From the NCBI GenBank assembly GCA_031267575.1, contig JAIRYN010000034.1, positions 1 to 45,271 of the forward strand: a stretch of DNA of 45,271 nt, written 5' to 3'. Each line of letters starts with the position of its first letter. Position 1 is the stretch's first letter. Below the pieces are notes generated by a model. That model made no database searches, was not told the origin of the DNA, and worked only from the letters and a program-made list of their open reading frames with translations. Origin of the DNA: Synergistaceae bacterium (GTDB lineage Bacteria; Synergistota; Synergistia; Synergistales; Aminobacteriaceae). Position numbers and translations under genes: made by a program. Positions 7,503 to 45,271 of this stretch are shown here, piece after piece.

Positions 7503-7708
7503 TTCAGAAACCTCCTTAACCTTAACAAATTTTGTTTCGTCAACATTGTTGCTTTTCGCCTTTTTATCAATTGATTTTATGATTATAGCTTAAAATTTTG
7601 CCAGAAAAAGCCCTCCGGGCCCCAAGGAGAAAAAATCATTATTTTCTCCGTAAAAATCTCGATAGGGTTTGAGTAAAAAGAGCGTAAATTTTAACATTTA
7701 GGATTGAT

Positions 7709-10595: not shown

Positions 10596-10617
10596 ACCTG
10601 GTCGCCTTTCGGCATTG

Positions 10618-10684
10618 TCTTCATTAATATTACCTTTATTAATATTGCCTTCATTAATATTACCTTCATTAAAAAATTGCCTTC
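10618..10684. repeat. Tandem repeat of about 16 bp with roughly 3.5 copies (ttcattaatattRcct) between moxR and the DUF58 gene
   Basis: Direct reading: cattaatattaccttt attaatattgccttc attaatattaccttc attaaaaaattgcc. Confidence 0.8.
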
Positions 10685-11627: not shown

Positions 11628-11688
11628 ATTATACTCCTTTGTTGATTTCAGCTTGTACGCGCCTTTTCGGACTGGATTGAGTCAAGCC

Positions 11689-13104: not shown

Positions 13105-13754
13105 TCCACCGAATTCCTGCCAGGGGGAAACTTGTCGGGGAAAAAGGCTTTGACCTCGTTCAAAAAATGATCCACCCGATGGGGTGTATGGATAAATTTG
13201 GGGTCAGAAAGGTCCAGTACCAGAAAATTCGGAATGTCCATCTCCGACTTGACAAAGTCGATAAAAGGAATATAAGCGGAGTACAGAGAACGCCAGTATT
13301 CCTCCCCGGCGTCCAGCTCGTCCCCTCGACCGCGCTCGCGGATGCGGCGCATGATTTCCTCAAAAGGGCAATAGACGAGGATCAACAACTGCGGAGCCTT
13401 GGTGTACTTAAGGAGGGAATCATAAAGGGTCAGGTAACATCCATATTGGCTGTCTTTGAAATAGCCCTGTTTGTAGTACAGCGTGGCGTAAACCTTGTCG
13501 CCGAAAATGCTGCGATCCATGATGTAGCAATTTTCCTCGGAGGCGCACAGGTACTGCGCGAAGCGCGTCACCAAAAAGTTGAGCTGCATAGGAAACGCCC
13601 AGTTTCGGTCGTGATGAAAGCGGCTCAATAGATCATACTGGTCGCGAAACTCCTCCGGCATGATCTTGAACCCCAGTCGTTCGCCTAAAAGATTGACGAT
13701 GGTCGACTTTCCGCTGGCGGTCATTCCCTCTACAATAATCTGAATCTGTCCCAT
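13101..13754 (-). CDS. Deoxynucleoside kinase (dAK/dGK/dCK family)
   Basis: P-loop IVEGMTASGKST, a DRS motif (YIMDRSIFGD), and the typical 217-aa size. Overlaps the upstream gene by 4 nt. Confidence 0.8.
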   Translation of the reverse strand: MGQIQIIVEGMTASGKSTIVNLLGERLGFKIMPEEFRDQYDLLSRFHHDRNWAFPMQLNFLVTRFAQYLCASEENCYIMDRSIFGDKVYATLYYKQGYFKDSQYGCYLTLYDSLLKYTKAPQLLILVYCPFEEIMRRIRERGRGDELDAGEEYWRSLYSAYIPFIDFVKSEMDIPNFLVLDLSDPKFIHTPHRVDHFLNEVKAFFPDKFPPGRNSVE

Positions 13755-13797
13755 TTACTTCGCGCCGCCTCCAGTTTTATCGCGTTTTTGTTTTATT

Positions 13798-15693: not shown

Positions 15694-15705
15694 GAAACCT
15701 CGTTC

Positions 15706-16227
15706 TCAGAGTCTCTTGGGAAACCACCCTCCCGTACATTGCTTGACGTCGGATATTGTGACAAAACCTTGATGATCAAACAATTTCTGTATGGTCATGA
15801 CATCGTGCCGGTGACAAAAGATTTCGACCATCAATTTCGGCCCGTCGCGCCCCATTCCGTTGATGACCGTCGCGCCAAGGCCCATATGACGCACTTCAGC
15901 AATCGCCGACCGACTGCCCTCGTTGTCGTCCAAGATCACTTTCGCCAAAATAAAAGAATTCAACAATCGCTCTTCCATCCAGGATCCAACGTAAGTGCCG
16001 GTGGCAAACCCTCCGCAGTAAAAAAGCAGTTCTACGTAAGTCAAACCTTTGCCACCGCCCAAAAGATAACTCAAAGCCAGCATATAGACCATAACCTCGA
16101 AAAAGCCAATGCAGCACGCGATGAAACGCCGTCCTTTTACAAGAAATAGGATGCGCACAATGTTGCAACTAACGTCAATAATGCGCGCGAAAAAGATTAG
16201 GAAAAGCCCCAGTATATTTAGCGCCAT
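15706..16227 (-). CDS. UPF0316/DUF2179 family membrane protein
   Basis: MALNILGLFLIFFARIIDVSCNIVRILFLVKGRRFIACCIGFFEVMVYMLALSYLL resembles the UPF0316 (YebE/YitT-C-like) N-terminal membrane domain. It is followed by a DUF2179-like soluble part. Confidence 0.6.
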   Translation of the reverse strand: MALNILGLFLIFFARIIDVSCNIVRILFLVKGRRFIACCIGFFEVMVYMLALSYLLGGGKGLTYVELLFYCGGFATGTYVGSWMEERLLNSFILAKVILDDNEGSRSAIAEVRHMGLGATVINGMGRDGPKLMVEIFCHRHDVMTIQKLFDHQGFVTISDVKQCTGGWFPKRL

Positions 16228-16362
16228 TCACACCACTCTCCCCGCTTGTCAGTGACTTGCATTTCATTTTGTACATTCTTTCTTTATGGTAACACACAAA
16301 CGAGCTGTTCGGGCGCTTCGTTTCTTCCCGTGGGACTTACTCTAACTTTATGGCTTTTACAT

Positions 16363-17166
16363 TTACAAATTCACTGTATCCCGTTGTTTGGGCTCGAACG
16401 CCTTCTCCATAAAGGGCTTCAACAAGTCGATAGGGATGGGAAAGAAGGTGGTGGAGTTTCGCTCTCCCGCGATTTCTCGAATCGTCTGAAGATAACGCAG
16501 TTGGAGCGTGACGGGGGAAACCTCCATCTGTTTAGCGGCTTCGGACAGTTTCGTTGCGGCCTGAAGTTCGCCCTCAGCGGCGATGATCTTAGCTCGGCGT
16601 TCGCGTTCGGCCTCGGCTTGACGGGCCATGGCGCGTTTCATTCCCTCGGGAAGCTCCAGCTCCTTCACCTCCACGGCACTGACTTTGATACCCCAGGGGT
16701 CAGTGCGTTCGTCAATGATTTTTTGGAGTTCGTGGTTGATCTTCTCACGGGAAGACAGCACTTCGTCCAGCTCAACGGAGCCCACCACCGAGCGCAAGGT
16801 GGTTTGGGCCAACTGACTGGTGGCCATGACGTAGTTCTCGACCTCTACGACGGAATGTGAGGGATCCATGACCCTGAAATAAACCACGGCGTTCACCTTG
16901 ATGGGGACGTTGTCCTTCGTGATAACCTCTTGGACGGGGACGTCCATTGTCAGGATACGCAGATCGACGTTCATGACGCGGTCGATCATGGGGATGATGA
17001 AGACGATACCGGGGCCACGGCTTCCTGCTAGACGCCCCAGGCGGAAAACGACGAGTCTTTTGTACTCCGGCACGATCTTTACCGCGGAGGAAAACACCAA
17101 TAGCGCGATGAAAATCACGCCGAACCAACTACCGATGTTGGAAAGTATTTCGAATACGTCAATCAT
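16363..17166 (-). CDS. SPFH/band-7 (stomatin-like) protein
   Basis: N-terminal TM helix, then [18 protein letters not shown]...IIPMIDRV...[33 protein letters not shown], the stomatin/HflC core. C-terminal coiled coil. Confidence 0.85.
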
Positions 17167-26500: not shown

Positions 26501-27260
26501 TGAAGGGCGCCGTCAGTTTACCCGCGAAAAAAGCTCGCCCCGTCGTCCCCACTGACACATCTATGGAAAGGGCCTCGAGAGACTCGAAGGCCAATGTTCC
26601 GCGAAGTCGTACAGGGAGACCTCCCAGGTCGGCGGAAAGCATAATGGAGCCATCTTGAGTCAGGAAGCCCTCCTCCACGCCCACGGCGGCGAAAGGGGTA
26701 TCGAAAGTGATGTCGTGTAACAGAACCTGGATCGGACGGATTGAACTTGACCCCTCGCTTTTCTCTCCTCCGTAGTGAGCGGCCAAAGTTGAAAGATCCT
26801 CCACCTTCGCCTTCACTCCGTCGATTTCCAGGTCCGAAAGCCAAAGCGCTCCCTGCAGCAGGTCTTTCCAAGAGGGGCGCAGCATAATACGCCTGGCACT
26901 CAATAAGGAGGTGTCTCCCGAAATCAGTTCGACGCCATTCAATGTAAGCCCGGAATACAAAGACCCGTCCACTTTCGCTACCCTCAGGATGGGAACGATA
27001 TTTTCACCGTAACGGTGTACTAAAGGCTCGACCAAAAGGGGGCCAATCGGGCCCCAAACAGCCCCAATCAGGCAAAAGAAAAAGACTCCTGAGAAGGCAA
27101 TACAGGTCCACCACAACGTTTTTTGCAAGAACCTCAAAAATTCCAACCTCGATTCTCTGGCTCTCTCATATAGAGCAAAGTTTACAACAACAACATCACA
27201 TACAACCGTACTTAGAAAGCATCGGCGCTTGTTTGATCTCAGAATGGCTCGATTATACAA
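23586..27260 (-). CDS. TamB/AsmA-like translocation and assembly module protein of 1224 aa
   Basis: N-terminal signal-anchor TM, a very long beta-rich Gly/Val/Leu-repetitive body, and a DUF490-like C-terminal region. The C-terminal coding sequence contains nucleotide tandem repeats (23525-23640). Confidence 0.5.
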   Translation of the reverse strand: MYNRAILRSNKRRCFLSTVVCDVVVVNFALYERARESRLEFLRFLQKTLWWTCIAFSGVFFFCLIGAVWGPIGPLLVEPLVHRYGENIVPILRVAKVDGSLYSGLTLNGVELISGDTSLLSARRIMLRPSWKDLLQGALWLSDLEIDGVKAKVEDLSTLAAHYGGEKSEGSSSIRPIQVLLHDITFDTPFAAVGVEEGFLTQDGSIMLSADLGGLPVRLRGTLAFESLEALSIDVSVGTTGRAFFAGKLTAPFKVKGSLQSVKLNELLAVFSQVEGRGEIDGQIDVMGAGENLGAWGTLRLKDGQVAGFPVEASVPWRYKAGDFSVSQAKLESGAGDIELKVSADLRPNPVTDRFFARGSVRNASMKKLERLLSPGVSLEGEGGMVDFWTSADQGGAVAGKVFMRLPELKVEGKEVVKGLRANLVLSPNWNLAVDCTGEVFGGKVFGAGEVLRSASNALWHSTLKFTLKEMKSNLVATAFPALAPLDLSGTLDADAHIVSLGNDLAVRGEARSQAFTLFGRRFDALSASMRYEKGTVVLEDLKARIDKALLDFSGAADLTTSELRFAGNLKGFNPQSIPELSQVEGLCDVTLEVQGTLTSPRVMVTLISNENKVAGVPLRHVKLSGTYENNKVYLPETTLQVPGGSLSFRGDVDLSKNGEPYLNLSGALTNLDLESIAQDWDMDVTGKVEGTLKVSGAVSNAALSATLRSNAIMVASTDVRDLYLDVTGTTRNVRVRSVKAKINEGALEGNGNLTFGRRGRLQIGMKVKGIEIRSLLAQFGLDGGVGGYLDGFLSLRGSPLRPELALEVTSPLTIQETLVDHLMLTIISPARGKFDMDASGRLGDLALTLKGHMERNKEGWGYAAESSILDLDQLVSAKMPSLKGQFAGNVKARVTGRMNGRRNRGPAVANVMLTLPVFSVAGVELRDIFLPIRVSEGRASVREGTGVAYGGKIDINADVNMPDQQWKATAKISGLNIGQAAHPFMAQGAIVGSADVNVQLKGNYGPLMMVFANGDFRSSEGYIHEFDILKNITKDGRISFEEIRGSFFWDGNDLWLNPGTQATAKPGAPLYKYFSINGPLGLLGKDLALICKGRFDVQALNTVLGALKGVLQFMTGSLAGNGQLLRQAVSKLVGYSERDFQDVTFQLKGSWKELQLLNLTIDKSIEEYLPLRNDTTTQRKESERKIRFNLRIPTGPGGGDDDLDAQEQFKKQLLDNLLNQLDL

Positions 27261-27487
27261 GATTTACGAGCGAAAGCATAAAAAGATTACTGAAAGGTCG
27301 CTAGTGGATAAGTGGATAAGTGGATAAGTGGATAGTGTGGACGACCTTCAAATTCCAAAAAACCAAGAGGCGAAAACCCTTTCTCGTCTTGGACGATAAG
27401 GATTTTATTTTCCGCGTAATCGCGACGTTATAGAGACATATGATCGCGCGTCTCTACAAAGCGTGACGCTCGTGTTAAAATTTCAAA

Positions 27488-27949
27488 ATGCTTGTTAAAA
27501 ATAAGACGATCACTTTTGTTTTGGCATTGACAGCAGATATCGCCACAAAATATTGGGCCTTGTCCGTTCTTGCCGTGGCGAGTGAGAAAATGACGTTTTC
27601 TACTCTGCTTTCTTTGAGGTTGCGTTTCAATCAAGGGATTTCTTTTTCTTTGCTGGTTCGGCATCCCCGGGGCGCGTGGCTGGTGGCTGTTGTCAGTGTC
27701 GTTTTTTTGGGAATGTTGTGCGTGAAAAATGCGACGGTCCGTTCCTCCTCTGGTATGTCCTTTGGTATGTTCTTTGGTATGTCCTTGTTGTGGGCTGGGG
27801 GTTTAGGGAATTTGGCCGATCGTGTCTTTTATGGATATGTTGTGGATTAGATTTACATGGGCATATTCGTGAACTTGGCCGATTTTTGGCTATGCTTGGG
27901 TTCTGTTTTATTGTTAAAGCATTGTTGGAATAGACGCCTCGACTCTTGA
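27488..27949 (+). pseudogene. lspA: Lipoprotein signal peptidase II interrupted by an in-frame TAG at 27848-27850
   Basis: ADIATKY (catalytic Asp region) and GNLADRVFYGYVVD, then TAG, then IYMGIFVNLADFWLCLGSVLLL containing the second catalytic FNxAD motif. The two halves are collinear and in the same frame. Confidence 0.75.
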
Positions 27950-27999
27950 GTGACATACGGTAAAATAAATGTCGAAAACTTGATTGGGGAGGGATTTAA

Positions 28000-29202
28000 A
28001 TGAGGGTTGCCGTAGGGTGGATTCTTTTTTCATGGTTGTTGACGGCGAGCGTCGCTGATTCGGCTTCGTCTGAGACGGCGCCGTCCATGGTGAAGCCTTT
28101 GGCGACGACGAACGCACCAGTGGTTTCCATTGAATTACCGGCGTCCTTGGCGTCCTCTTGGGAGAGACTTTCCTCGACCCTAACGGACGCCTTGAACCTC
28201 CAGGACAAACAGGAGACCTTGCCGGAATCCTCCTACTTCGGCGCGGACAAAATCAGCAACACGAAAAAAATCAACGCGCTTTTGGACAAGGTCGTCGAGA
28301 TTTTGGTTCAGGGCGACGCTAGCGATCTGCGTAGGCAGGCGATTGCGTTACGTGAGACAGGGCTGCCCGCTTTGCGCCGAGAAGTGGATGACCTCCGTAA
28401 CAAGCGTATTTCCGCTCCAGAGACCTCCAAAGTGCCCTGGGTCAAAACGCGCTCCCAAATAGAAGCGCGCATCGCGGAGCTGGATGTGGAGATCAAAGAG
28501 AAAGAGCGGCTTGCGATGGATATCGACAGCAAGATCGCCGAAGCGTTGAGAAACATGGGCCTCGATTTGGACGACAAACAAATCGACATCCTGCTGACCT
28601 CCGTCACTGGTGACGATCTTTTTCAAAACACGGTGGTCTTCGCGAATGTCAAACACGTGGTGGAAAAGCTCGCGGAGCTTTCTCGGGAAGACCGGGACAA
28701 CTTGGAGATCAGCCGGCGTTATATCGGTATGTACCTGGTGTTGAACGACGTTTTGATTGCCACTCAAGAGGGACTGATCGAGAAAATCAATATGGACTAC
28801 AAACCACGATTGGCCGAGTTGAAGGCCGAGGCCGAAAAACTTCGCGCGGAAGCCTTAGGACGCGCAAAACAAGGACAGTACTCGAAGACCCAAAAAGAGG
28901 CATTTGAGGTCAACGCCAAGGCCAACGCCATGACGGCGCGAGTGGCAGAGCTTTACGCGGAGCTCCTAGAAGGACAACGCAAAAATTTCAAGGTGACCTT
29001 GATGGACCTGCAACGCAACCGCGACGTGGCGGAGAGTACCTACAAGACTGTCCGGAGTACGGGCGACCTGAGAAACCTAATCCGCGCGGGGCTCGATTTG
29101 TTTGACTCCATCCATCCTCTTTCCATGCCTCAGCTTCAATCTTTTGAAAACGAGGCCATCCGCAAGGAGTTCGAAGAAATCAACAAACGTCTGAGAAAAT
29201 GA
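28000..29202 (+). CDS. Secreted coiled-coil protein of 400 aa, function unknown (possibly TelA-like)
   Basis: Signal peptide MRVAVGWILFSWLLTASVADSA, then long heptad-rich Glu/Lys/Ala/Leu segments. The TelA resemblance is weak. Confidence 0.55.
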   Translation: MRVAVGWILFSWLLTASVADSASSETAPSMVKPLATTNAPVVSIELPASLASSWERLSSTLTDALNLQDKQETLPESSYFGADKISNTKKINALLDKVVEILVQGDASDLRRQAIALRETGLPALRREVDDLRNKRISAPETSKVPWVKTRSQIEARIAELDVEIKEKERLAMDIDSKIAEALRNMGLDLDDKQIDILLTSVTGDDLFQNTVVFANVKHVVEKLAELSREDRDNLEISRRYIGMYLVLNDVLIATQEGLIEKINMDYKPRLAELKAEAEKLRAEALGRAKQGQYSKTQKEAFEVNAKANAMTARVAELYAELLEGQRKNFKVTLMDLQRNRDVAESTYKTVRSTGDLRNLIRAGLDLFDSIHPLSMPQLQSFENEAIRKEFEEINKRLRK

Positions 29203-29229
29203 AAATACGCTATCTTTCGTTAAGAGATC

Positions 29230-29263
29230 TGTAATTATTATTAGAGGTCGCTGTATTATACAG
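29230..29263 (+). terminator. Hairpin terminator candidate after the coiled-coil gene
   Basis: Near-perfect palindrome ttagaggtcgctgta-tta-tacagcgacctctaa with an AT-rich flank and no clean T-run. Confidence 0.4.
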
Positions 29264-29675
29264 CGACCTCTAATGCCGGTGGACAGCCGGCTCACAACAC
29301 AGGGAGGTGTTGCGAAATTATATTAACACGCATTTTATATAAGGTATACTATAATAAATCTTAGGATATGACGTAAAAATTGCTTAAAAATATTATAATG
29401 AAGCTATAATTAAAATAAAATAAATAAGAATGATATTTGAAACAGTATTAAAACTTACTTTGTTTTACATCTATCCGTGTCGCTATGTCGGTTGTTTGTT
29501 TTTGAGTAAATATTTTATCGTTTTGAAGCGAAAGATATCCCTGACGCTGACGGCGGATCCCTTCTATATGTTTTATGCGCATGCTTTATGCGCATGCTTT
29601 ATGCGCGATGTGTAAATGAAGTTAGTGGTCGCCTTGTTTTTGTCCCTGGTATTCCCTCTCTGAAGTTTTTATTTT

Positions 29676-29989
29676 TACGATAAAGCGATCCTCATCCAAC
29701 AGCTGAAGCCGTTGGATGAGGATCGCAACACCACCGTTGGCGGTGTTTGTTTTGTATTTGGTTTCTTGCCATATGTCTACTTTCATGTTAAACTCCTTTT
29801 ATGGCTTATCAACGTGAGATGCGGGGCGGAACACGACCAGGATATTAATGCGGTTGTAAATATTCTAAGAGTGGGAGCATCCACTCTTAGTGGGGGCATC
29901 CACTCTTAAAGGAAAAGACGTAAGACCGGTTTCAGTCGGCTGTTTTTGTCGATCTTATAATCCCATGACTTTAGTCGTGGGAGTATGTC
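29676..29989 (+). repeat. Copy B of the promoter-leader repeat cassette, oriented toward cobQ
   Basis: Inverted relative to copy A at about 90% identity. Contains a 19-bp internal tandem duplication (29869-29906) and the conserved hairpin cccatgac-ttta-gtcgtggg at 29962-29981. Confidence 0.85.
29766..29794 (+). promoter_or_regulatory. Sigma70-like promoter within copy B, likely driving cobQ
   Basis: TTGCCA, 17-nt spacer, TAAACT. It is preceded by a hairpin plus T-run (29727-29768) that overlaps the -35 element. Confidence 0.5.
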
Positions 29990-30022
29990 AAGTAAGGAGT
30001 TTGTGCGTAAGGAGTTTGTGCG

Positions 30023-37379: not shown

Positions 37380-37892
37380 TTATCTTTTGATCGCAAGAAC
37401 ACGGGGAGCAGCTATCAAAAACCAGACCGCGAACTCCTCCGGCGTTTTTCGCAGACGAGATGACAATTCGCCGAACTCGATCCACTTGGTCTCCATAATC
37501 TCATCCTCGTTCGCGCTCAATGCGCCGGAGTAGTCGGCAGCGAACACGTGATCGTACTCATGTTCATACAGGCAATCGTTGAACTTGTGCTCGTACACGA
37601 AGGAAAACAGCTCGACGGGCTTTATACCACGAACGCCGATCTCCTGCTCCAATCGACGAACCACGGCGAGTTCTGTCGACTCGTCCTCTCTTGGGTGAGA
37701 ACAACAGGCGTTGGCCCACAGGCCGCCAGAGTGGTATTTGCCCATCGCCCTTTGCTGTACCAGCATATATCCGTTATGATGAATAAACACCGAAAAAGCG
37801 CGATGTAGCTTCGGAGTCCTGTGAGCCTCCATTTTCTCCGCCGAGCCGATGGGCCGGTCAAACTCATCGACCAAAATAATTCTCTCCGTCAT
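37380..37892 (-). CDS. idi: Isopentenyl-diphosphate delta-isomerase, type 1 (Nudix)
   Basis: [38 protein letters not shown] closely matches the E. coli Idi core. Start overlaps the cysNC stop. Confidence 0.85.
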
Positions 37893-39817
37893 GCCCCTTC
37901 ACCCTCTAGAAAATGCACAATTCTCTCCGCCTCTTCTTCCGCGTTGCCGCTCCCGTTCACGACGAGTTCGGGATGTTCCGGGCGTTCGTATGGCGCGTTG
38001 ATGCCGGTAAAATTGGGAATCTCCCCGATTCTCGCTTTTTTGTAAAGACCTTTCGGGTCGCGCTGTTCGCAGGCTTCCAGCGACGTATCGACGAACACCT
38101 CGATAAATTCTCCGGGAGCGAACAGGGAGCGCGCGTATTCCCTGTCTTTTTGGAAAGGTGAGATAAACGCCACCAACACGATAAGGCCAGCGTCAATCAT
38201 CAATTTCGCCACTTCGGCCACGCGGCGGATGTTCTCCACCCTGTCTTCCTCGGTGAAGCCCAGGTCTTTGTTGAGCCCGTGCCTCACATTGTCGCCGTCC
38301 AGCACACAAGAACGCAATCCCATCGAAAAGAGCTTTTTGTCAACCAGATTCGCCACCGTCGATTTGCCGGAACCTGAAAGCCCCGTGAACCAAAGCACGC
38401 GAGGGGTTTGCCCCATCAGACGTGCTCTAGCCTCTTTCGTGATCTCGAACAAGTGCCATGTCACGTTTGCGGCCCTCCGCAAGGAATATCGAATCATTCC
38501 CGCGCCAACCGTGTCATTCGTGACGCGATCAATAAGGATGAAACCACCTAATTCCCTGTTTTCCGTGTAAGGTTCGTACACAATCGGTGTTCCGGTTTTG
38601 ATGTTGCCTATTCCGATTTCGTTCATAGCGAGGGTTTTGGCCGGTTCTATCGACAATGTTTCGACGCTTGTCTTGCCGCGTATTTCCGTCACGGTGGCCA
38701 ACACCGTCCGGTTCGATATCTTCAAAAGGTATTCGCGTCCGGGGAACAACCTGTTTTCGCTCATCCAGACTACGACCGCGCGGAAATGGTCCGTAACATC
38801 TGAAACAACCCGCGCGTCCGATAAAAAGTTGCCGCGGCTTATGTCCGTTTCTTTCGTAAGAGATATCTCCGCAGCTTCACCCTTTTTAGCCGCGTTTCGT
38901 TCTTTGCCGCTCACGATAAGCGACTTAACCGTATTTTTTTGACCCGACGGCAGAACGACAACATCGTCGCCCGTGCGTATCGTGCCCTCCGCGATTATGC
39001 CGCAGTAACCCCTAAAGCTCGCGCCGGGCCGGTTGACCCACTGAACCGCCATCCTAAATGGTTTTACCTTTTCTTTTAGCTTTTCTTTTAGCTTTTCTTT
39101 TTCGCCGCCCGGTTCGAGGGTTTCCAAATACTCCGCCAGCGTCGGACCACTGTACCACGGCGTATCGTCCTTACGCGCGAAAACGTTGTTCCCTTTTAGG
39201 GCAGAAAGCGGAATACAGGTCACGAAGAGTTCTCCCGTGTCGTGTTCCAGTTTTTTAATTTTTACCATTAAGCTCTCGTAGTCCTTCGATATTTCGTCGA
39301 AAATATCCCTCGACCATCCGACCAAATCCATCTTGTTCACCGCGAGCGCGATGTGGCGAATACCTAACAATACCGCGATGTACGTGTGCCTCACGGTCTG
39401 CGGCAAGATGCCGTTGCGCGCGTCAAGTAGAACAACGGCGGCCTCGCTGTTTGAAGCGCCGGTCACCATGTTTCTCGTGTACTGTTCGTGTCCCGGCACG
39501 TCTGCCACGATGAACTTCCTGTTTTTCGTTTCGAAATACCTATACGCCACGTCTATGTCTATGGTTATCCCCTGCTCACGTTCCGCCAAAAAGCCCTCCA
39601 TAAGAAGCGAGAAATCCAGTTCGCCGTCCATGTTTTTCTTCCAGCTTTCGCGGTGGAGGGAAGAGAGTTGATCATCAAAGAGACAGCCCGAATCATAAAG
39701 CAGCCTTCCTATCAGCGTGCTCTTTCCATCATCGACGCTACCGCAGGTTAAAAATTTCAGTTGCGTTTTATTTTCATGTGTTTTCTTTTTAGATTCGGAA
39801 AATGGCATTTTTAAAAA
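37889..39817 (-). CDS. cysNC: Bifunctional sulfate adenylyltransferase subunit 1 / adenylylsulfate kinase
   Basis: GTPase domain [16 protein letters not shown]...DVPGHEQY...NKMD, with a C-terminal APS kinase ([14 protein letters not shown]...). Start at MPFSESKKK (39817); the ORF track extends to 40054 through the cysD remnant. Contains an in-frame [10 protein letters not shown] repeat. Confidence 0.85.
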
Positions 39818-40560
39818 TACCCCTCCTGTTTTTTCTTCTCCATGGAACCGTCCTGGTCGTTGTCGATTAACCGGCCATGACGCTCCGAAAAACGCAATTG
39901 CCGTAACTCGTTGAAGACGTCCCGCGCGATAGCGGCGTTCGATTCGACAGCTCCTGTGAGCGGGTAGCAGCCCAGAGTCCTGAAATACACCATCCGAAAC
40001 TCCGGCCGTTCGTCCGGAACAAGTTTCATCCTGTCGTCGTCGATCATAATCCACGTGCCCTTGCGTTTCACTACCGGGCGCACGCTGGCGAAATAGAGCG
40101 GAACTATCGGAATATCTTCATCGACGATGTACTCCCACACATCATACTCCGTCCAGTTGGAGAGCGGGAACACACGCATGGTCTCCCCTGGCCCGAGGCG
40201 AGTAAGGGATTTATGCCTTCTTTGACGGCCTTTTCGTTCGTATAAGTGATCAGGCGCAACCCCAGTGTCTTTTCACTGTGGCGTCCCTGAAAGCGATCAT
40301 CTCTTTGAATTTCCACTCTTTGAATTTCCACGTCGTGTCTATATGCATAAGAGGCAACGGCGGCTTCGGTGGGTAAAAAGTCTTTATGGTGAGGCGAAGC
40401 ATGACCGACGAACCCTTATCTATGGATTGACTTACCGTTCTGCCCAACTTATGCAAACCTGAATAAATCCGATCAAATATGATCAGGAGCAAGTTTACTG
40501 TTGGCTTCCTGCTTCATCGAGGCCAGTTTCACCATCATCTCGCGACGACATAAAAACCGC
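39811..40560 (-). pseudogene. cysD: Sulfate adenylyltransferase subunit 2 (cysD), degraded by frameshifts and an internal deletion
   Basis: Three collinear fragments in different frames match CysD: [35 protein letters not shown].., then [17 protein letters not shown], then [18 protein letters not shown]...[14 protein letters not shown]...[12 protein letters not shown]. About 85 central residues, including the GGxRRDEE region, are missing. A 15-bp in-frame tandem duplication lies at 40300-40329. Confidence 0.8.
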
Positions 40561-40660
40561 AACATGAAGAAAACCCCTTATTAATTTATAATGATGATAA
40601 GCAATGAATGCCCGGAGGAACGTCATCCCCAATGTTTGGGTCTGCCCATGTTTTTGCTCG

Positions 40661-41389
40661 TTAATGAAAAGCTAAATCTCGCAGATCCGAGTACAATTTT
40701 TGGATATCGTCGGGCAGAACGTCCTCGCCAGAGTCAGGAAAGCGCGCCGACGCGGGTTCGTTCCAAAAAGAGGCAATATTGCGCCGCAGTGTTTCCAGAT
40801 CGATAGGTCGTCCGAGCCAGTTCAGTAGCTTGGCGAACGAATCAAGGGGTTCAAGGCAGAAGCGGTTGAAGTCGAAAATAAACGCGTCCATCCCCTCGGA
40901 GTTTTCGATAAAGCGTCGACTGTATTTGCCCCAGATACATAGGCCCTCGTCAAAATCCGTTCCGTAGCGCTTGCTCATTGAAGCCGCGACCTCGGCGGGA
41001 TGCCGTAAACAGAAAACCACCCGGCGAAGTTCCAGCCACACGTCCCGCCACGCCGCCAAAGTTAGGCAGAAGAGCGGGTCTTTGCAAAGTTCTCCGTCGA
41101 ACTCTTTCAAAAAGATCTGAAAATATTTTTGCCTTTTGGTGGCGAGCGCCATGATCTCGTCGCGCGGAGGTGGTGTAAAGATTCCCCAAAAAGGGCTGAT
41201 CTCGATTAGAAGCCGTTCGTTGACCGCGAAAAGCAAGTCGTGTTCAAAATGCCCCCTGGGGTTCATGGGCGTCGAGTTGCGCAGAACGCGGATATTGCGC
41301 CCCAGATCGAAACCGCAGAGCTCCAACAGGCCCGTGACGCAGCTTGTGCCGCTTCTCATCGGACCGGTAACGATGGTTGTTTCCCTCAT
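40661..41389 (-). CDS. Sulfotransferase family protein
   Basis: VTGPMRSGTS is the 5'-PSB (PAPS-binding) loop of sulfotransferases, on a roughly 240-aa scaffold. The start ATG overlaps the TGA of the upstream gene (ATGA). Confidence 0.7.
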   Translation of the reverse strand: MRETTIVTGPMRSGTSCVTGLLELCGFDLGRNIRVLRNSTPMNPRGHFEHDLLFAVNERLLIEISPFWGIFTPPPRDEIMALATKRQKYFQIFLKEFDGELCKDPLFCLTLAAWRDVWLELRRVVFCLRHPAEVAASMSKRYGTDFDEGLCIWGKYSRRFIENSEGMDAFIFDFNRFCLEPLDSFAKLLNWLGRPIDLETLRRNIASFWNEPASARFPDSGEDVLPDDIQKLYSDLRDLAFH

Positions 41390-43680
41390 GATTTTGCCTT
41401 TCCGTCCATAAGCGCAAGTGTCGCCCACGCGGAGCTCACGCCGCCCAGGTCCCGTGTGAAAAACAAAGTTCGCTCCCCGTCCTCCTCGAACCAGTAAGCG
41501 AGAATGGGCTCGCCTGCCCAGCCACCCGGCCCCTTGATTCTTCGCAGCCAGTCCCGACCCGGGTCAAGAGAGGAGGAGGAAGGCGACGCGACGGTCAGCG
41601 CCAGCAACGCGGCGGAAGTTTCGATGACGGAACCGCCCCACGCTCCCTCGTTTCCCTGGCCGCTTTGCAAGCGATAGACGGCCCGCGCCTCGACCTCCTT
41701 CAGAAGCTGGGAATCGTAGGGGGAACCTTCGAGGGAGGTAAAGAAACGCAGCGCGTACCAAATGGGGATTGTTTGTGAGGGAAACCACTTTCCGGGCCAT
41801 CCACCGCTCACTTGCTGGTTTCGCAGCAGATAATCGCGGCAGAGAGTAATTTCCTCCGCATAACGTTCAGGATCTATCCGCGTCAGCAACCATGCACAGA
41901 AGGCCGTTGCTGGGCAGTCCACGCCCCGCCAATAAGGCGCGCGCCCAGGCGCGTCGGCGGGAAGCGTGCCGAATCCCCCTTGTTCACGGTCAAAAAACAC
42001 GTCGACGAGCCTACGGCAACTTTCCCGCAAACACGTTCTATGCCTGCCGGTCGACAGCAAACCCTCCATAACGAGGGCACTATCCAAAGATGTAACGCCA
42101 TAATCCCTCTGATAGCCCCATAAACCGTCGACGGCCTCTTCCAGCAGATAACGCTCGGTTTCCCACGATTCTCCTTCGAGGAAAGACGTCTCGCCCTTTC
42201 CGGCCTTTTCTGCTTGAAGCAGAAGGCCATAATAAGCCACTGTACCATCGCGGAAAGTTTCGGTGAGTTGAGGGCCATTGCCGCCCATGCGGAGAACCGT
42301 GGTCTCGGCTAGAGGCATACGGCCAAAATCCACCGAAATCGGGCCGAAATCGTCTTTCAGGCAAAAAGCCGCCGCCCTGCGACCCGACGCTATCGCGGGC
42401 CACATGCCGTAAGGCAGCGCCGCGCCGTCCCACTCTGTATAATCCCCGGCCAAGACGACTCCTGGCATGGGACAAAGCCATGTCGCGGAAAAACCGCGAT
42501 AAGTCGACTCCTCGATAATGGGGCCGACTTCCGCCCAGCGCCGCGATTCCAGCAGAGAACAGTTCTTGACGGTAAATTCACCGACACTTGTCGCTTGCAG
42601 TTCCTCAATCATCATCCGCGTCAAATCCGCGTCGCTCATGCCTTCAGATGCCGCCATGCTTTCGCCCACAATGTAGCCTGTGACGACGACTTCGTTTTCG
42701 TTAGAAACGCCAGAAACGCCTGGAAGCTGATGGAAAATAAAGGTGTTGAAATGGCCCTGAGTGGAAACCAGATAGGACAATGCGCGCCGATTTTCGACAC
42801 GACAGTGGAGAACGACGGCGATTCCTCCACCGTAGCGGACGCGGCCGAGAAAATCGGAGGAGACGTTTTTGAATTCACTACATAATTTTTTAGCCTCAGT
42901 CGCTGGGACTGCTAGGATAATCTTTTGCGCGACGGCTTCTTCTTTCGCGCCGTTTCCGTTACGCCACAGAACTTTAACGGACTTGGAGCTTTGCCCTCCC
43001 ACCGAAAGACCTCGCTCAAGAGCCTCGGATTCTTGAGAATCTTTTTTGGGGACTAACTCGTACACGCGGCAAGCCGTTCGGATTTCTGCCCCGCCGCTCG
43101 CGGCTGTTAGGTTTGCGGCCATAGCCTGAATCATCGCTCCGTTTCCTCGCTGGAAATAATCTGCCCTGTGACGGAGGAGACAATCCCTGCGGCGGGTCGG
43201 AACAGCCTCGGTGGGTGTTCCGGGGTGGATGACGCGAAAGAAAGCCTTCATCGCCGCCCCCAGGTCTTCACCGATCATCGCCTCCTGTGGATTCGGCGAG
43301 GCGAGGAAAGACGATAGGCAGATCTGTTGCCGCGGCGCCGAGTTCAGCGAGCGAACGCAATCGACCACCGAGTCGCCGGTATGGAGCCGTCCCCGGTGAA
43401 ACAAACCCACGGGATTATCGTTCTCGTAGTGAGAACCCGCGTCCACGGGAAAGTCAAACCATTTGGGATTGAAAGCGAAAATCGACCCCGTTTCGTAAAC
43501 GATTCTATCCCGTTTCCCCGTGCGCACTTTACCGCCCAAACGGCCATCCGCTTCCAAGAGCAAAACTTTTTTTCTGGGTTTTCCCGTTTTCACGTTCAAA
43601 GAAACTTCGCAGGCGGCGGACAAACCCGCCAATCCGCCTCCCACGATGATCACGTCGTACTGCTCGTATTGTCGCGTCAT
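41386..43680 (-). CDS. Fusion protein: flavin-containing amine-oxidase/desaturase-like N-terminal domain plus squalene-cyclase/prenyltransferase-like repeat C-terminal domain
   Basis: N-terminus YDVIIVGGGLAGLSAA...LLEADGRLGGKV...GVVLAGDYT (amine oxidase FAD fold). C-terminus carries QW-type repeats QQVSGGWPGKW, QSGQGNEGAWGGS and KGPGGWAGEP, typical of terpene cyclase/prenyltransferase alpha-barrels. GGAGGTGA RBS before the ATG at 43680. Confidence 0.65.
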   Translation of the reverse strand: MTRQYEQYDVIIVGGGLAGLSAACEVSLNVKTGKPRKKVLLLEADGRLGGKVRTGKRDRIVYETGSIFAFNPKWFDFPVDAGSHYENDNPVGLFHRGRLHTGDSVVDCVRSLNSAPRQQICLSSFLASPNPQEAMIGEDLGAAMKAFFRVIHPGTPTEAVPTRRRDCLLRHRADYFQRGNGAMIQAMAANLTAASGGAEIRTACRVYELVPKKDSQESEALERGLSVGGQSSKSVKVLWRNGNGAKEEAVAQKIILAVPATEAKKLCSEFKNVSSDFLGRVRYGGGIAVVLHCRVENRRALSYLVSTQGHFNTFIFHQLPGVSGVSNENEVVVTGYIVGESMAASEGMSDADLTRMMIEELQATSVGEFTVKNCSLLESRRWAEVGPIIEESTYRGFSATWLCPMPGVVLAGDYTEWDGAALPYGMWPAIASGRRAAAFCLKDDFGPISVDFGRMPLAETTVLRMGGNGPQLTETFRDGTVAYYGLLLQAEKAGKGETSFLEGESWETERYLLEEAVDGLWGYQRDYGVTSLDSALVMEGLLSTGRHRTCLRESCRRLVDVFFDREQGGFGTLPADAPGRAPYWRGVDCPATAFCAWLLTRIDPERYAEEITLCRDYLLRNQQVSGGWPGKWFPSQTIPIWYALRFFTSLEGSPYDSQLLKEVEARAVYRLQSGQGNEGAWGGSVIETSAALLALTVASPSSSSLDPGRDWLRRIKGPGGWAGEPILAYWFEEDGERTLFFTRDLGGVSSAWATLALMDGKAKS

Positions 43681-43696
43681 GTCTCCGTCACCTCCG

Positions 43697-44902
43697 TCAT
43701 TGAATATTCCACGCTTGCCTCGCTTGCTTATCGGCGTCGGGTGACACACCCAGAATCGCGTTCCGCGGATTGAACAAGCTCAAAGCTAGACCAGGGCGGC
43801 TAACGGCGAGGTAAGCCTTTGCTTGCGTCAAAGTCCCCCGCGACAACGTGAGCTTCAGGTGGTGAATTTTCCTATAGGTATTGAGATAAACGACGCCGCC
43901 GGTGATGCGCTTGCGCAGAGGTGACGCAGTGATCCCGACGTAATCCTTCACGCCCTGCGCCTTTTCAGGCAAGCAGAGTCCCGCGCGCGTCAGTGCCTCA
44001 AGCAGCGGATGCCATTGCTTAGGGTCATCATCGAGCCATTCCTCGTAACACTCTACGCCAAAGACGTCGTCAACGCCTTCTTCCATCAGGTTGAAGCCGA
44101 AATTCAGATCACGGCAGAGCGGGAAAACGACTTCGAAGATCTTCCTCAACGATTCGATTTCGGCGGCGCCGGCCTCGGCCGTTCTAGTAGCGGACCGTAG
44201 TCTTGCGAGCCAAGTCAGAATTTTCCCTATGTCCATTCCTGCCTTCGACACGACTTTATCCACGCACAGCCTCATTCCAACGTCGTCCGCCCGGTCCAGC
44301 ATGAAACCAATCTGAAAAATCCTCGCTCCCTCAGGCAGGTCGTCGAAAAATTTTCGTAGCGCGCGCGCCTGGGAAGCGGGACGCTCGAACAGGGACATGA
44401 GCTCCCCGATCAGATCAAAGGTTCTCTCGTTGGACGTTTTCGGTTCGGGGCCGAAGAAAATATTGGGTTGCCGCAAAACCCTTTCCGCGTCCGCTCCAGC
44501 CAAATCCATTTCCAGCCAAAGGTTGTGGATATCGCGGTTCCATGGGTGGTCGAGATTGAGCCAATTCCGGGCGAGAACTCGAAGATTTTTCCAGACAGGA
44601 TAGACCTCGCACAGTTCGTCGATGGCAGAAGAGATTTCACCAGCAAGAAGAGCAGGACCGCAAGCCTCCTTCTTGATTTCAAACAAGATGTCGGAAAGGG
44701 GCTCCGGTTCGCCGAGACGGCACTCGAAACCCCAGAAGCTGGACAACTGTATCGGAAGGCGCGCGGCGACGCAGCGCATTTGCGCCCGGCATTCCTCTCC
44801 GAACAGACTTTCCGGCAGGGACGGCTCAATGTCATCCAAGACGTCGGTCAACGAAGGGACCGACGTCATAGCGGGCGCAACACGATTCGCGGGGCAATTC
44901 AT
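43697..44902 (-). CDS. Hypothetical protein of 401 aa with no recognisable family signature
   Basis: Long ORF in the operon between the precursor gene and the fusion enzyme. Acidic clusters FFDDLPEG and VDDVFGVECYEE are the only motif-like features. Confidence 0.55.
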   Translation of the reverse strand: MNCPANRVAPAMTSVPSLTDVLDDIEPSLPESLFGEECRAQMRCVAARLPIQLSSFWGFECRLGEPEPLSDILFEIKKEACGPALLAGEISSAIDELCEVYPVWKNLRVLARNWLNLDHPWNRDIHNLWLEMDLAGADAERVLRQPNIFFGPEPKTSNERTFDLIGELMSLFERPASQARALRKFFDDLPEGARIFQIGFMLDRADDVGMRLCVDKVVSKAGMDIGKILTWLARLRSATRTAEAGAAEIESLRKIFEVVFPLCRDLNFGFNLMEEGVDDVFGVECYEEWLDDDPKQWHPLLEALTRAGLCLPEKAQGVKDYVGITASPLRKRITGGVVYLNTYRKIHHLKLTLSRGTLTQAKAYLAVSRPGLALSLFNPRNAILGVSPDADKQARQAWNIQ

Positions 44903-44993: not shown

Positions 44994-45271
44994 TTACCAA
45001 CGAGAGAGAGCCTTACCAATGGATATAATCACTGCTCCCCCGACGGCGGCACCAACGACAAGGGCAGCGGTCGATGTAACGATGCCACCCGCCACTTTTT
45101 CTAGTTCTTCTTCACTTAATTCGTCTTTCTTGTCCACTCCTACTTCCTTTGTCAGAGCTTCCGCGTCTTCTTTGGAGAACTCCAGGCCCAACGTTTTCGC
45201 ATAGGTAATCTGACCGTCTAGATCTCCTATGCCGATTTCTTTCGCCTTTTTGCGGACTTCCTCATTCTCTA
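44994..45271 (-). CDS. Nif11-like leader precursor peptide with a double-glycine site (N-terminus beyond window end)
   Basis: The ORF is open to the window edge. Leader: ...EEVRKKAKEIGIGDLDGQITYAKTLGLEFSKEDAEALTKEVGVDKKDELSEEELEKVAGG. Core: IVTSTAALVVGAAVGGAVIISIGKALSRW, then stop. The leader end LSEEELEKVAGG resembles the LSDDELEGVAGG of prochlorosin-type Nif11 leaders. Confidence 0.65.
   Translation of the reverse strand, partial: ENEEVRKKAKEIGIGDLDGQITYAKTLGLEFSKEDAEALTKEVGVDKKDELSEEELEKVAGGIVTSTAALVVGAAVGGAVIISIGKALSRW

What the first reader, a model, noticed from the sequence alone, without database searches (positions are those of the whole stretch)
41386..43680. Unusual single-polypeptide fusion of a flavin amine-oxidase/desaturase-like domain with a squalene-cyclase/prenyltransferase-like QW-repeat domain
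The N-terminal roughly 450 aa show the classical GxGxxG ... LEADxRxGGR ... GxxxAGD FAD amine-oxidase / phytoene-desaturase / HpnE-like fold. The C-terminal roughly 310 aa carry three QW-type repeats (QQVSGGWPGKW, QSGQGNEGAWGGS, KGPGGWAGEP) characteristic of class II terpene cyclases and prenyltransferase beta subunits. I do not recognise this architecture as a described family. It recalls a squalene-epoxidase-plus-cyclase or HpnE-plus-SHC logic compressed into one protein. It is coupled directly to a sulfotransferase through an ATGA overlap.
Basis: partly seen in the sequence, partly recalled or inferred. Interest (0 to 1): 0.7.

Follow-up and report, generated by a model that had tools for sequence, protein, structure and literature searches.

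The report
Flavoenzyme–terpene-cyclase fusion in a peptide pathway
The gene is a real, conserved fusion of an FAD oxidoreductase to a small class II terpene-cyclase domain, and it sits in a ribosomal-peptide gene cluster where it most likely oxidises and cyclises a prenyl chain attached to the peptide's C-terminal tryptophan, a variant of a recently described kind of peptide modification.

Summary

About 38 full-length homologues (26-74% identity) and a split-gene version rule out an assembly artefact.

The squalene reading is not supported; the context is a proteusin-type RiPP cluster. Upstream lies a Nif11-leader precursor whose only invariant core residue, across 15 aligned precursors from six loci, is the C-terminal Trp; two more precursors in a seventh locus also end in Trp. 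Between precursor and fusion lies a Pfam-less 401-aa protein whose confident model (pLDDT 91.5) matches only ABBA indole prenyltransferases. Downstream, joined by an ATGA overlap, is a sulfotransferase-like gene, then cysD (degraded), cysNC and idi.

Elsewhere the same prenyltransferase family is fused directly to a homologous cyclase domain, the architecture published for NctPC.

Best reading (about 0.6): the prenyltransferase prenylates the terminal Trp, and the fusion cyclises and oxidises the adduct, which is then sulfated. The chemistry is inferred, not shown. This is a new variant of a known kind.

The parts
41386..43680 (-). [quoted passage not shown]
42346..43680 (-). N-terminal FAD domain (residues 1-445), amine-oxidase/PPOX/phytoene-desaturase fold. 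GGGLAGL at 43621..43641, LEADGRLGGK at 43528..43557, LAGDYT at 42436..42453
41389..42318 (-). C-terminal (alpha/alpha)6-barrel class II terpene-cyclase-like domain (residues 455-764). QW motif at 41785..41817; candidate acid Asp588 in YWRGVDCPATA at 41902..41922
43697..44902 (-). ABBA-fold aromatic (indole) prenyltransferase-like protein, 401 aa (390 aa from the second Met); no Pfam family
   Evidence: AF2 pLDDT 91.5, pTM 0.91. The Foldseek PDB top 50 are all ABBA prenyltransferases, mostly Trp/indole PTs. Invariant Arg/Lys/Tyr/Glu/Asp lie on the barrel strands. Orthologue lies directly upstream of the fusion in L001, L004, L006 and L011. The family is fused to a homologous cyclase domain in P0226
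44994..45271 (-). Precursor peptide gene, 5' end cut by the contig edge. Nif11-type leader ending VAGG, core IVTSTAALVVGAAVGGAVIISIGKALSRW
   Evidence: Translation; Bacteriocin_IIc double-glycine hit 29 bits; alignment with 14 orthologous precursors shows the C-terminal Trp as the only invariant core residue
40661..41389 (-). Sulfotransferase-like gene (242 aa), start overlapping the fusion's stop (ATGA)
   Evidence: Overlap; PMRSGTS and RHPAEVAAS motifs; profile hits are cytosolic sulfotransferases, E 0.004; Pfam Sulfotransfer_3 in 3 of 4 orthologues; orthologue present in L001, L003, L004, L006 and L011
39811..40660 (-). cysD (sulfate adenylyltransferase subunit 2), degraded: needs three reading frames and lacks an internal segment
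   Evidence: PAPS_reduct fragments in two ORFs; three-frame translation
37889..39808 (-). cysNC (sulfate adenylyltransferase subunit 1 / APS kinase), PAPS supply
   Evidence: NCBIfam NF004035 870 bits. The match begins at residue 88 of the long GTG-initiated ORF, so the real start is near 39808
37380..37892 (-). Type 1 isopentenyl-diphosphate isomerase (idi), start overlapping the cysNC stop
   Evidence: NCBIfam NF002995 154 bits, cut-off 127; coordinates

Best explanation
The protein is a bifunctional 'oxidoreductase-cyclase' maturase of a proteusin-type ribosomal peptide pathway.

Proposed sequence of events:
1. The Nif11-leader precursor is made. Its hydrophobic Gly/Ala/Val-rich core ends in an invariant Trp.
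2. The adjacent stand-alone ABBA-fold prenyltransferase attaches an isoprenoid chain (length unknown) to that C-terminal Trp. The operon's idi helps to balance IPP and DMAPP.
3. The fusion's C-terminal monodomain class II cyclase folds and cyclises the chain by acid catalysis, with Asp588 as the likely proton donor.
4. Its FAD domain carries out a two-electron oxidation of the prenyl-indole adduct, either to prepare the electrophile for ring closure or to re-oxidise or oxygenate the product.
5. The translationally coupled sulfotransferase sulfates the product using PAPS from cysNC.
6. The leader is removed at the Gly-Gly site by a C39 peptidase-ABC exporter, a gene seen in orthologous clusters.

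Shown here: the two folds, the reality and conservation of the fusion, the ABBA fold of the neighbour, the invariant C-terminal Trp, the conserved gene order, and the existence of prenyltransferase-cyclase fusions built from the same two families.

Inferred: every chemical step, the order of oxidation and cyclisation, the chain length and the sulfation site.

For: Real fusion. About 38 full-length homologues exist. A split version has a 431-aa amine-oxidase gene overlapping a 331-aa cyclase gene by 4 nt.

RiPP context. The order precursor(s) - [PoyD-type rSAM epimerase] - prenyltransferase-like - fusion - sulfotransferase-like is seen in L001, L004 and L006. The same gene set, rearranged, is seen in L003 (partial prenyltransferase ORF) and L011; L012 has the set without the sulfotransferase. 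The epimerases score 357-385 bits against TIGR04517, cut-off 325. At least 10 contigs carry both a fusion homologue and a prenyltransferase homologue, judged by matching contig lengths.

Acceptor. The C-terminal Trp is the only invariant residue of an otherwise hypervariable core in 15 aligned precursors. Two more precursors in L012 also end in Trp.

Prenyltransferase. The model has pLDDT 91.5. All top-50 PDB matches are ABBA prenyltransferases, mostly Trp/indole-specific.

Rosetta stone. P0226 (750 aa) joins this prenyltransferase family to a domain homologous to our C-domain (hhalign 96%, E 2e-9). It sits behind an NHLP precursor containing Trp.

Published precedent. NctPC is an ABBA prenyltransferase fused to an MstE-like cyclase. 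It geranylgeranylates Trp and then cyclises the chain. PalQ prenylates C-terminal Trp (review PMC13290415).

Isoprenoid link. idi lies in the same operon. Distant family members lie between a UbiA prenyltransferase and an iron oxygenase-like gene.

Candidate acid. Asp588 is invariant in the RiPP clade and aligned with an Asp in P0226; the L011 fusion has the same W-x-x-x-D spacing by inspection.

Against: No chemistry was tested.

The canonical DxDD/DxD acid motif is incomplete. The RiPP clade has D-C-P-A-T-A, so the position aligned with the catalytic SHC Asp376 is Pro. The cyclase domain could therefore be altered in function or inactive.

Pfam SQHop_cyclase_C is below its cut-off for this protein.

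The FAD fold is not the one used by known terpene epoxidases. Its reaction cannot be read from sequence. The amine-oxidase Lys is missing.

No prenyl-diphosphate synthase lies in the cluster, so the chain length is unknown.

The window lacks the PoyD epimerase and exporter genes seen in orthologous clusters, because the contig ends inside the precursor gene.

cysD in the operon is degraded.

The sulfotransferase assignment rests on weak scores.
Confidence: 0.6

Rival explanations
1. The fusion belongs to a peptide-independent pathway for a sulfated terpenoid or meroterpenoid lipid. Its position next to the RiPP genes would then be coincidental.
For: idi, cysNC and a sulfotransferase are in the same operon. 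Distant family members sit between a UbiA prenyltransferase and an oxygenase-like gene with no precursor peptide. Other members are split or carry lipoprotein-like signals in non-RiPP contexts.
Against: In the clade that contains the window protein (41-74% identity), the gene is always flanked by the ABBA prenyltransferase-like gene and Trp-terminated precursors, in loci from Synergistaceae, Ca. Moduliflexus and a Deltaproteobacteria MAG. There is no squalene, phytoene or polyprenyl synthase in the window's operon. The cyclase is a monodomain of MstE size, not a triterpene cyclase. The clade has its own active-site motif, DCPATA rather than xxD/ExTA.
Confidence: 0.12
2. The FAD domain acts directly on the peptide, for example by oxidising a Lys/Orn side chain, the new N-terminus or the terminal Trp backbone. 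The cyclase-like barrel would be a non-catalytic substrate-binding or scaffold domain, and no terpene cyclisation would occur.
Against: The Lys that defines true amine oxidases (LAAO K326) is Ala or Val here. The LAAO substrate-binding region does not align. The barrel keeps many invariant polar and aromatic residues, including Asp588, Asp533 (near-invariant), Glu539 and Asp744. The same barrel is fused to the prenyltransferase family elsewhere. An ABBA prenyltransferase-like gene is always adjacent.
Confidence: 0.15
3. The fusion is an assembly or frameshift artefact that joins two separate genes.
For: The contig is from a MAG, and a neighbouring gene (cysD) carries frameshifts. Split versions of the two domains exist in other organisms.
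Against: About 38 independent full-length homologues of 700-765 aa come from different samples and sources. The alignment is continuous through the linker. A confident single-chain model has pTM 0.73.
Confidence: 0.01

Closest known systems
NctPC / ChrPC bifunctional prenyltransferase-terpene cyclase RiPP maturases (Hubrich et al., Chem 2024; known to me only through review PMC13290415)
   Same: RiPP context with long proteusin-type leaders. Trp is the prenyl acceptor. There is an ABBA-fold prenyltransferase of low similarity to cyanobactin prenyltransferases. There is an MstE-like monodomain class II cyclase. A P-C fusion built from the same two families as the window's genes exists (P0226).
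   Different: Here the prenyltransferase is a separate protein and the cyclase is fused to an FAD oxidoreductase instead. A sulfotransferase is translationally coupled. The acceptor is the strictly C-terminal Trp. The hosts are anaerobe MAGs (Synergistaceae, Ca. Moduliflexus, a Deltaproteobacteria MAG). I could not read the primary paper, so I cannot exclude that it mentions this architecture.
MstE (merosterolic acid synthase) and the unpublished-to-me monodomain cyclases 8PAJ/8PAK
   Different: MstE is a stand-alone enzyme using a DxD acid motif (PMC12414744). The window domain keeps only the first Asp (DCPATA) and is fused to a flavoenzyme.
Protoporphyrinogen oxidase / phytoene desaturase / L-amino-acid oxidase flavoenzymes (Pfam PF01593)
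   Different: Only 14-20% identity over the aligned regions. The amine-oxidase Lys is absent. The substrate domain does not align with LAAO. No NCBIfam family is matched beyond the first ~60 residues.
CpaO (beta-cyclopiazonate dehydrogenase) and prenylcysteine oxidase
   Different: They are more distant than PPOX or LAAO, act on small molecules and have no fused cyclase.
PalQ, C-terminal tryptophan prenyltransferase of RiPPs (PMC10853753; review PMC13290415)
   Same: A RiPP prenylated on a C-terminal Trp that must be terminal.
   Different: PalQ has a trans-isoprenyl-diphosphate-synthase-like fold, not ABBA. It has no cyclase, flavoenzyme or sulfotransferase partner.

Membership tests
Flavin amine-oxidase / PPOX / phytoene-desaturase superfamily (PF01593) | Pfam model scored above the gathering cut-off | tested here: met
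   64 bits against a cut-off of 19.8
Flavin amine-oxidase / PPOX / phytoene-desaturase superfamily (PF01593) | Two-domain FAD-binding fold with N-terminal GxGxxG...E...GG and a C-terminal GD motif | tested here: met
True amine oxidases (MAO/LAAO/PAO/LSD1) | Conserved Lys bridging a water to flavin N5 (LAAO K326) | tested here: not met
   In the HMM alignment, LAAO ...SGTK(326)IFL aligns with YGGGIA(288)VVL. The family has A/V/S/I at this position
Class II terpene cyclases (SHC/OSC/MstE superfamily) | (alpha/alpha)6 barrel fold | tested here: met
Class II terpene cyclases (SHC/OSC/MstE superfamily) | Sequence-family membership (Pfam SQHop_cyclase_C / profile homology) | tested here: inconclusive
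   The window protein alone scores 20 bits, below the cut-off of 26.1. The family profile gives E 5.8e-23 to 8pak and 1.7e-20 to SHC. Many homologues carry a precomputed PF13243 hit
Class II terpene cyclases (SHC/OSC/MstE superfamily) | QW repeats | tested here: met
   One canonical motif (615-628), one Q...GxW core (675-681) and one degenerate motif. The first aligns with an SHC QW motif
Class II terpene cyclases (SHC/OSC/MstE superfamily) | Acidic DxDD (or DxD in MstE) proton-donor motif | tested here: inconclusive
   The aligned segment is V-D588-C-P-A-T-A. The first Asp is invariant in the clade, but the position of the catalytic SHC D376 is Pro. Distant clades have the second Asp/Glu, or both (P0038, DIDSTA)
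Class II terpene cyclases (SHC/OSC/MstE superfamily) | Protonation-initiated cyclisation of an isoprenoid | not testable with these tools
   Requires an enzyme assay
RiPP prenyltransferase-cyclase ('PC') maturase systems (NctPC/ChrPC) | Precursor peptide with a Trp acceptor encoded next to the enzymes | tested here: met
   The C-terminal Trp is invariant in 15 aligned precursors; two more in L012 also end in Trp
RiPP prenyltransferase-cyclase ('PC') maturase systems (NctPC/ChrPC) | Peptide prenyltransferase (ABBA or trans-IDS-like fold) | tested here: met
   The neighbour's model has pLDDT 91.5, and all top-50 PDB matches are ABBA prenyltransferases. Activity was not tested
RiPP prenyltransferase-cyclase ('PC') maturase systems (NctPC/ChrPC) | Prenyltransferase and cyclase fused in one polypeptide | tested here: not met
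   The prenyltransferase is a separate gene (43697..44902). The cyclase is fused to an FAD domain instead. A true P-C fusion of the same families exists elsewhere (P0226)
Proteusins | Long Nif11/NHLP-type leader with a Gly-Gly cleavage site | tested here: met
   The leader aligns over its whole held length with orthologues, some of which (L003, L004, L011) carry weak or faint Nif11 Pfam hits. The window fragment alone scores below the TIGR03798 cut-off, E 5e-4
Proteusins | PoyD-type radical SAM epimerase in the cluster | tested here: inconclusive
   Present above cut-off in L001, L004, L006 and L011. Absent from the window, whose contig ends inside the precursor gene
PAPS-dependent sulfotransferases | 5'-PSB and 3'-PB motifs and family-model match | tested here: inconclusive
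   PMRSGTS and RHPAEVAAS are invariant or conserved. The profile's top hits are SULT1A enzymes at E 0.004, aligned on RNPKDVAVS. Pfam Sulfotransfer_3 hits 3 of 4 orthologues (best 3.4e-5) but not the window protein
LanC-type lanthionine cyclases / protein prenyltransferase beta subunits (other alpha/alpha barrels) | Zn-binding Cys/His ligands and a Cys-containing substrate | tested here: not met
   No invariant Cys or His in the C-domain. The window's core peptide has no Cys. No LANC_like or Prenyltrans hit for the window protein

The most novel reading that the evidence does not exclude
The cassette makes a class of ribosomal peptide not yet described: a hydrophobic, probably D-amino-acid-rich proteusin whose C-terminal Trp carries an oxidatively cyclised and sulfated terpenoid. 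In this reading the FAD domain and the cyclase barrel cooperate in a flavin-dependent initiation or termination of a class II-type cyclisation. The substrate would be handed from the flavin site to the barrel within one polypeptide. That mechanism is not known for class II terpene cyclases.
Probability: 0.3. Interest if true: 0.85.

Novelty: new variant of a known kind. Interest (0 to 1): 0.65.

Why it matters
Cyclised terpene groups on ribosomal peptides were reported only in 2024, made by prenyltransferase-cyclase fusions. This locus points to a second way of building such systems, from four separate parts:
- a free ABBA prenyltransferase from a very large, unannotated family (4471 cluster representatives);
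- a cyclase barrel welded to a flavoenzyme;
- a dedicated sulfotransferase;
- a strictly C-terminal Trp acceptor.

If the inferred chemistry is right, it adds oxidation and sulfation to peptide-terpene hybrids. It would also give a compact, genetically encoded route to amphiphilic lipid-anchored peptides, and provide a natural case of flavin chemistry coupled to class II cyclisation. It flags two Pfam-less or mis-annotated families ('hypothetical protein', 'FAD-dependent oxidoreductase', 'protoporphyrinogen oxidase') for re-annotation. The hosts are uncultured anaerobes (Synergistaceae, Ca. Moduliflexus, a Deltaproteobacteria MAG), which are poorly explored for natural products.

Tried and rejected
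Literature
- Four searches for the architecture found no description of an FAD-cyclase fusion.
- PDB codes 8PAK/8PAJ are not cited in the held library.
- The primary NctPC/ChrPC paper, the MstE paper and a 2026 review are not held. Comparison with published systems therefore rests on one review and one evolutionary study.

Searches that gave little
- Single-sequence PDB searches for the 401-aa and 255-aa neighbours gave only chance hits. The profile of the 401-aa family hit nothing; only structure prediction revealed the ABBA fold.
The rest were generic FAD N-termini or SHCs.
- The third homologue search, with the C-domain profile, returned mostly fragments.
- One context look-up had no DNA.

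Ideas rejected
- LanC-like cyclase or protein-prenyltransferase beta subunit: no Zn ligands, and no Cys in the core peptide.
- Canonical amine oxidase: the defining Lys is absent.
- Triterpene (squalene) cyclase: the domain is a monodomain, and no squalene synthase is present.
- Assembly artefact: refuted by the full-length homologues.

The two prenyltransferase-containing fusions P0205 and P0251 have no cyclase-like part.
Full report
**1. The observation**

The minus strand carries an uninterrupted ORF at 41386..43749. It lies 10 nt behind a GGAGG and 16 nt after the stop of the upstream gene, and gives 764 aa. All quoted motifs are at the stated places. The stop overlaps the start of the next gene in an ATGA.

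Pfam places residues 1-445 in the flavin amine-oxidase family (PF01593, 64 bits, cut-off 19.8). The squalene-cyclase model reaches only 20 bits, below its cut-off of 26.1. I therefore tested the C-terminal half independently.
- A profile of 13 family C-termini hits the monodomain cyclase 8pak_A at E 5.8e-23, Alicyclobacillus SHC at 1.7e-20, 8paj at 1e-17, drimenyl-diphosphate synthases at about 1e-10 and MstE at 2e-6.
- An AlphaFold2 model built on 28 homologues has pLDDT 87 and pTM 0.73.

Both folds are therefore real. Only one QW motif is fully canonical, and motif counting alone would be weak evidence.

**2. Not an artefact**

The protein collection holds about 38 full-length relatives of 700-765 aa at 26-74% identity. 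They come from independent JGI, ENA, NCBI and Logan assemblies and align continuously through the linker. In locus L035 the two halves are separate genes, an amine-oxidase of 431 aa and a cyclase-like protein of 331 aa, overlapping by 4 nt. That is the expected ancestral or derived state of a genuine gene fusion. The window is the whole 45,271-bp contig of a Synergistaceae MAG. NCBI annotates the protein only as 'FAD-dependent oxidoreductase'.

**3. Surroundings in the window**

All the following genes are on the minus strand.
- 44994..45271: a precursor-peptide gene that runs off the contig end. It encodes a Nif11-type leader ending ...EKVAGG and the core IVTSTAALVVGAAVGGAVIISIGKALSRW.
- 43697..44902: a 401-aa protein with no Pfam, NCBIfam or PDB sequence match.
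- 41386..43680: the fusion.
- 40661..41389: a 242-aa sulfotransferase-like protein.
- About 39811..40660: a degraded cysD.
- 37889..39808: cysNC (NF004035, 870 bits).
- 37380..37892: a type 1 IPP isomerase whose start overlaps the cysNC stop.

The genes beyond idi are an amino-acid ABC transporter, a LysR regulator and housekeeping genes.

**4. The same cassette elsewhere**

Contexts of homologues show the same arrangement (with BLAST). One to seven Nif11-leader precursors come first, followed by a PoyD-type radical-SAM epimerase, an orthologue of the 401-aa protein, the fusion, and an orthologue of the sulfotransferase-like protein. The epimerases score 357-385 bits against TIGR04517, cut-off 325.

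Further genes are often present: a beta-lactamase-fold protein, a C39-peptidase ABC exporter, B12-radical-SAM enzymes, a peptide arginase (FlmR_OhkR_N) and YcaO/TfuA. These are proteusin-type RiPP clusters.

Named sources include Candidatus Moduliflexus flocculans (L011) and a Deltaproteobacteria MAG (L012). At least ten contigs carry both a fusion homologue and a homologue of the 401-aa protein, judged by matching contig lengths.

**5. The precursor**

I aligned 15 precursors from six loci. The leader and the VAGG cleavage site are conserved and the core is hypervariable. The only invariant core residue is the C-terminal Trp, usually preceded by Lys or Arg within three residues. Two further precursors in L012 end in NSW and VGW. 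The Trp is the only Trp, and usually the only aromatic residue, of the core.

**6. The 401-aa neighbour**

A model built on 35 homologues is very confident (pLDDT 91.5, pTM 0.91). It consists of five alpha-beta-beta-alpha repeats, giving ten strands. All of the top 50 Foldseek hits in the PDB are ABBA aromatic prenyltransferases. Most are Trp/indole enzymes: 5- and 6-DMATS, MpnD, FgaPT2, PriB, IptA, CymD and AmbP1/3. NphB and EpzP also appear. TM-scores are 0.5-0.55 over the full length.

The invariant residues of the family lie on the barrel strands. They are E49, R51, D60, E120, D122, R200, E273, H337, K339, K351 and Y353 in P0043 numbering. ABBA enzymes bind the diphosphate and the aromatic acceptor at these positions; that statement about ABBA enzymes rests on my own knowledge.

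The family is large and unannotated, with 4471 representatives at E<=1e-3. Some members are fused to methyltransferase, 2OG-oxygenase, FAD_binding_4 or sulfotransferase domains.

One member, P0226 (750 aa), carries the prenyltransferase-like domain at residues 4-377. At 411-710 it carries a domain homologous to the window's C-domain (hhalign 96%, E 2e-9, 249 columns). It sits directly after an NHLP precursor whose core contains Trp.

That is the architecture published for NctPC, an ABBA prenyltransferase fused to an MstE-like cyclase that geranylgeranylates Trp and then cyclises the chain (review PMC13290415). The same review reports that PalQ prenylates a strictly C-terminal Trp.

**7. The sulfotransferase-like gene**

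Orthologues share an invariant VTGPxRSGTSC segment and a conserved CLRHPxxVAxS segment. By inspection these correspond to the 5'-phosphosulfate and 3'-phosphate binding motifs. The profile's best PDB hits are cytosolic sulfotransferases, at a weak E 0.004, with RNPKDVAVS aligned to RHPAEVAAS. Pfam Sulfotransfer_3 matches 3 of 4 orthologues.

The gene is present in six loci, counting a split copy in L006, but not in L012. In the window it is followed by PAPS-synthesis genes.

**8. Active-site clues**

*Cyclase domain.* In the HMM alignment with SHC, the DxDD-TA segment (374-379) aligns with V-D588-C-P-A-T-A.
- Asp588 is invariant in the 20 RiPP-clade sequences.
- It aligns with an Asp in P0226 (HWCQADFTT). 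The diverged L011 fusion shows the same W-x-x-x-D spacing by inspection (HWCQADYATT).
- The position of the catalytic SHC Asp376 is Pro.
- The distant clades carry the acid two residues later (SLDATA, SVETTA, SADTTA), or both Asp residues (DIDSTA in P0038).
- MstE is reported to use DxD (PMC12414744).
- Asp588 is therefore the best candidate acid, but the motif is non-canonical.
- Glu539 and Asp744 are invariant, and Asp533 is nearly so.

*FAD domain.* The dinucleotide motifs are intact. The Lys that marks true amine oxidases (LAAO K326) aligns with Ala288, and with A/V/S/I across the family. The LAAO substrate domain does not align. The domain thus resembles PPOX and desaturases at least as much as amine oxidases.

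**9. Family structure**

Relatives at 28-36% identity are not in RiPP clusters. Several (L007, L008) lie between a UbiA prenyltransferase and a Haem_oxygenas_2-type gene. This is a meroterpenoid-like setting that again links the family to prenylated aromatic substrates. Others have lipoprotein-like N-termini (P0035, P0038, the L035 cyclase). A distant member of the prenyltransferase-like family sits beside a Nif11 precursor without Trp, together with YcaO, ThcOx and a methyltransferase, in Kovacikia minuta. The prenyltransferase family is therefore not restricted to Trp or to cyclase partners.

**10. Explanation**

The evidence fits a pathway in which the ABBA enzyme prenylates the terminal Trp. 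The fusion then cyclises the chain in its barrel and oxidises the adduct with its flavin domain, and the coupled sulfotransferase adds sulfate. idi and cysNC supply precursors.

- Shown: the folds, the fusion, the synteny, the invariant Trp and the Rosetta-stone fusion.
- Inferred: all the chemistry, including whether oxidation precedes or follows cyclisation, the chain length, and the sulfation site. The site could be a hydroxyl generated by the fusion, water capture at the end of cyclisation, or a Ser/Thr of the conserved V-T-S-T segment at the core's N-terminus.

I put about 0.6 on the general role. The rivals are weaker for the reasons given in their entries: a free sulfated terpenoid pathway (0.12), a peptide-directed oxidase with a non-catalytic barrel (0.15), and an artefact (0.01).

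**11. Comparison and novelty**

The system works like the published prenyltransferase-cyclase maturases, but it fails their defining architectural feature. Here the prenyltransferase is free and the cyclase is fused to a flavoenzyme, and a sulfotransferase is added.

I found no description of an FAD-class II cyclase fusion in the searchable literature. I could not read the primary 2024 paper. I rate the finding as a new variant of a known kind, interest 0.65.

**12. Limits**

- The contig ends inside the precursor gene, so the upstream half of the cluster is missing. No epimerase, exporter or beta-lactamase-fold homologue lies elsewhere in the window.
- cysD appears to be a pseudogene or mis-assembled.
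- The sulfotransferase assignment rests on weak scores.
- No biochemical test was possible.

Noticed in passing
window 39811..40660 (-): cysD is degraded. Its reading frame must be pieced together from three frames. About 70 aa are missing between 'GINP' and 'RVFPLSNW', judged against E. coli CysD recalled from memory. A 15-bp tandem duplication (GTGGAAATTCAAAGA, giving [10 protein letters not shown]) is also present. It is either a pseudogene or an assembly error, whereas cysNC next to it is intact.
   Followed up: partly
window 37380..37892 and 37889..40054 (-): The idi start overlaps the cysNC stop by 4 nt, so isoprenoid and PAPS supply genes are co-transcribed with the RiPP genes. The long GTG-initiated cysNC ORF overstates the gene; the family match starts at residue 88, so the real start is near 39808.
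   Followed up: partly
window 44994..45271 (-): The precursor gene runs off the contig end, with about 15 leader residues missing. The PoyD epimerase, beta-lactamase-fold protein and C39 exporter found in orthologous clusters are not anywhere in the window, so half of the cluster is probably on another contig.
   Followed up: yes
L035 4688..6975: A split version of the fusion: an amine-oxidase gene (431 aa) and a cyclase-like gene (331 aa, lipoprotein-type signal FSGC) overlap by 4 nt. They lie in a non-RiPP context next to a trypsin-like protease and a spermine-synthase-like gene.
   Followed up: partly
L007 7907..11624; L008 1288..5188: A distant clade of the fusion (28-36% identity) lies in a conserved UbiA prenyltransferase - fusion - Haem_oxygenas_2 triad with no precursor peptide. 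This is probably a meroterpenoid pathway. Its cyclase motif carries the acid two residues later than the RiPP clade.
   Followed up: partly
P0043 family; L033 392..3100; L009 9509..11077: The ABBA-like prenyltransferase family has no Pfam model but 4471 cluster representatives. Members are fused to methyltransferase, 2OG-oxygenase, FAD_binding_4, sulfotransferase or cyclase domains. Some sit beside NHLP or Nif11 precursors that lack a terminal Trp, for example in Kovacikia minuta with YcaO/ThcOx.
   Followed up: partly
L011 (Ca. Moduliflexus flocculans DF820457.1) 3024..17144: A large proteusin cluster. It has seven precursors all ending (K/R)(R/G)W, two PoyD epimerases, the prenyltransferase-like gene, a diverged 779-aa FAD-cyclase fusion, two B12-radical-SAM enzymes, a peptide arginase and YcaO. 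The sulfotransferase orthologue lies on the opposite strand at the cluster edge.
   Followed up: partly
window 1..3000 and 27000..30000: Low-GC patches (0.38-0.44, against about 0.53 elsewhere), and a 400-aa ORF (28000..29202) with no Pfam match.
   Followed up: no
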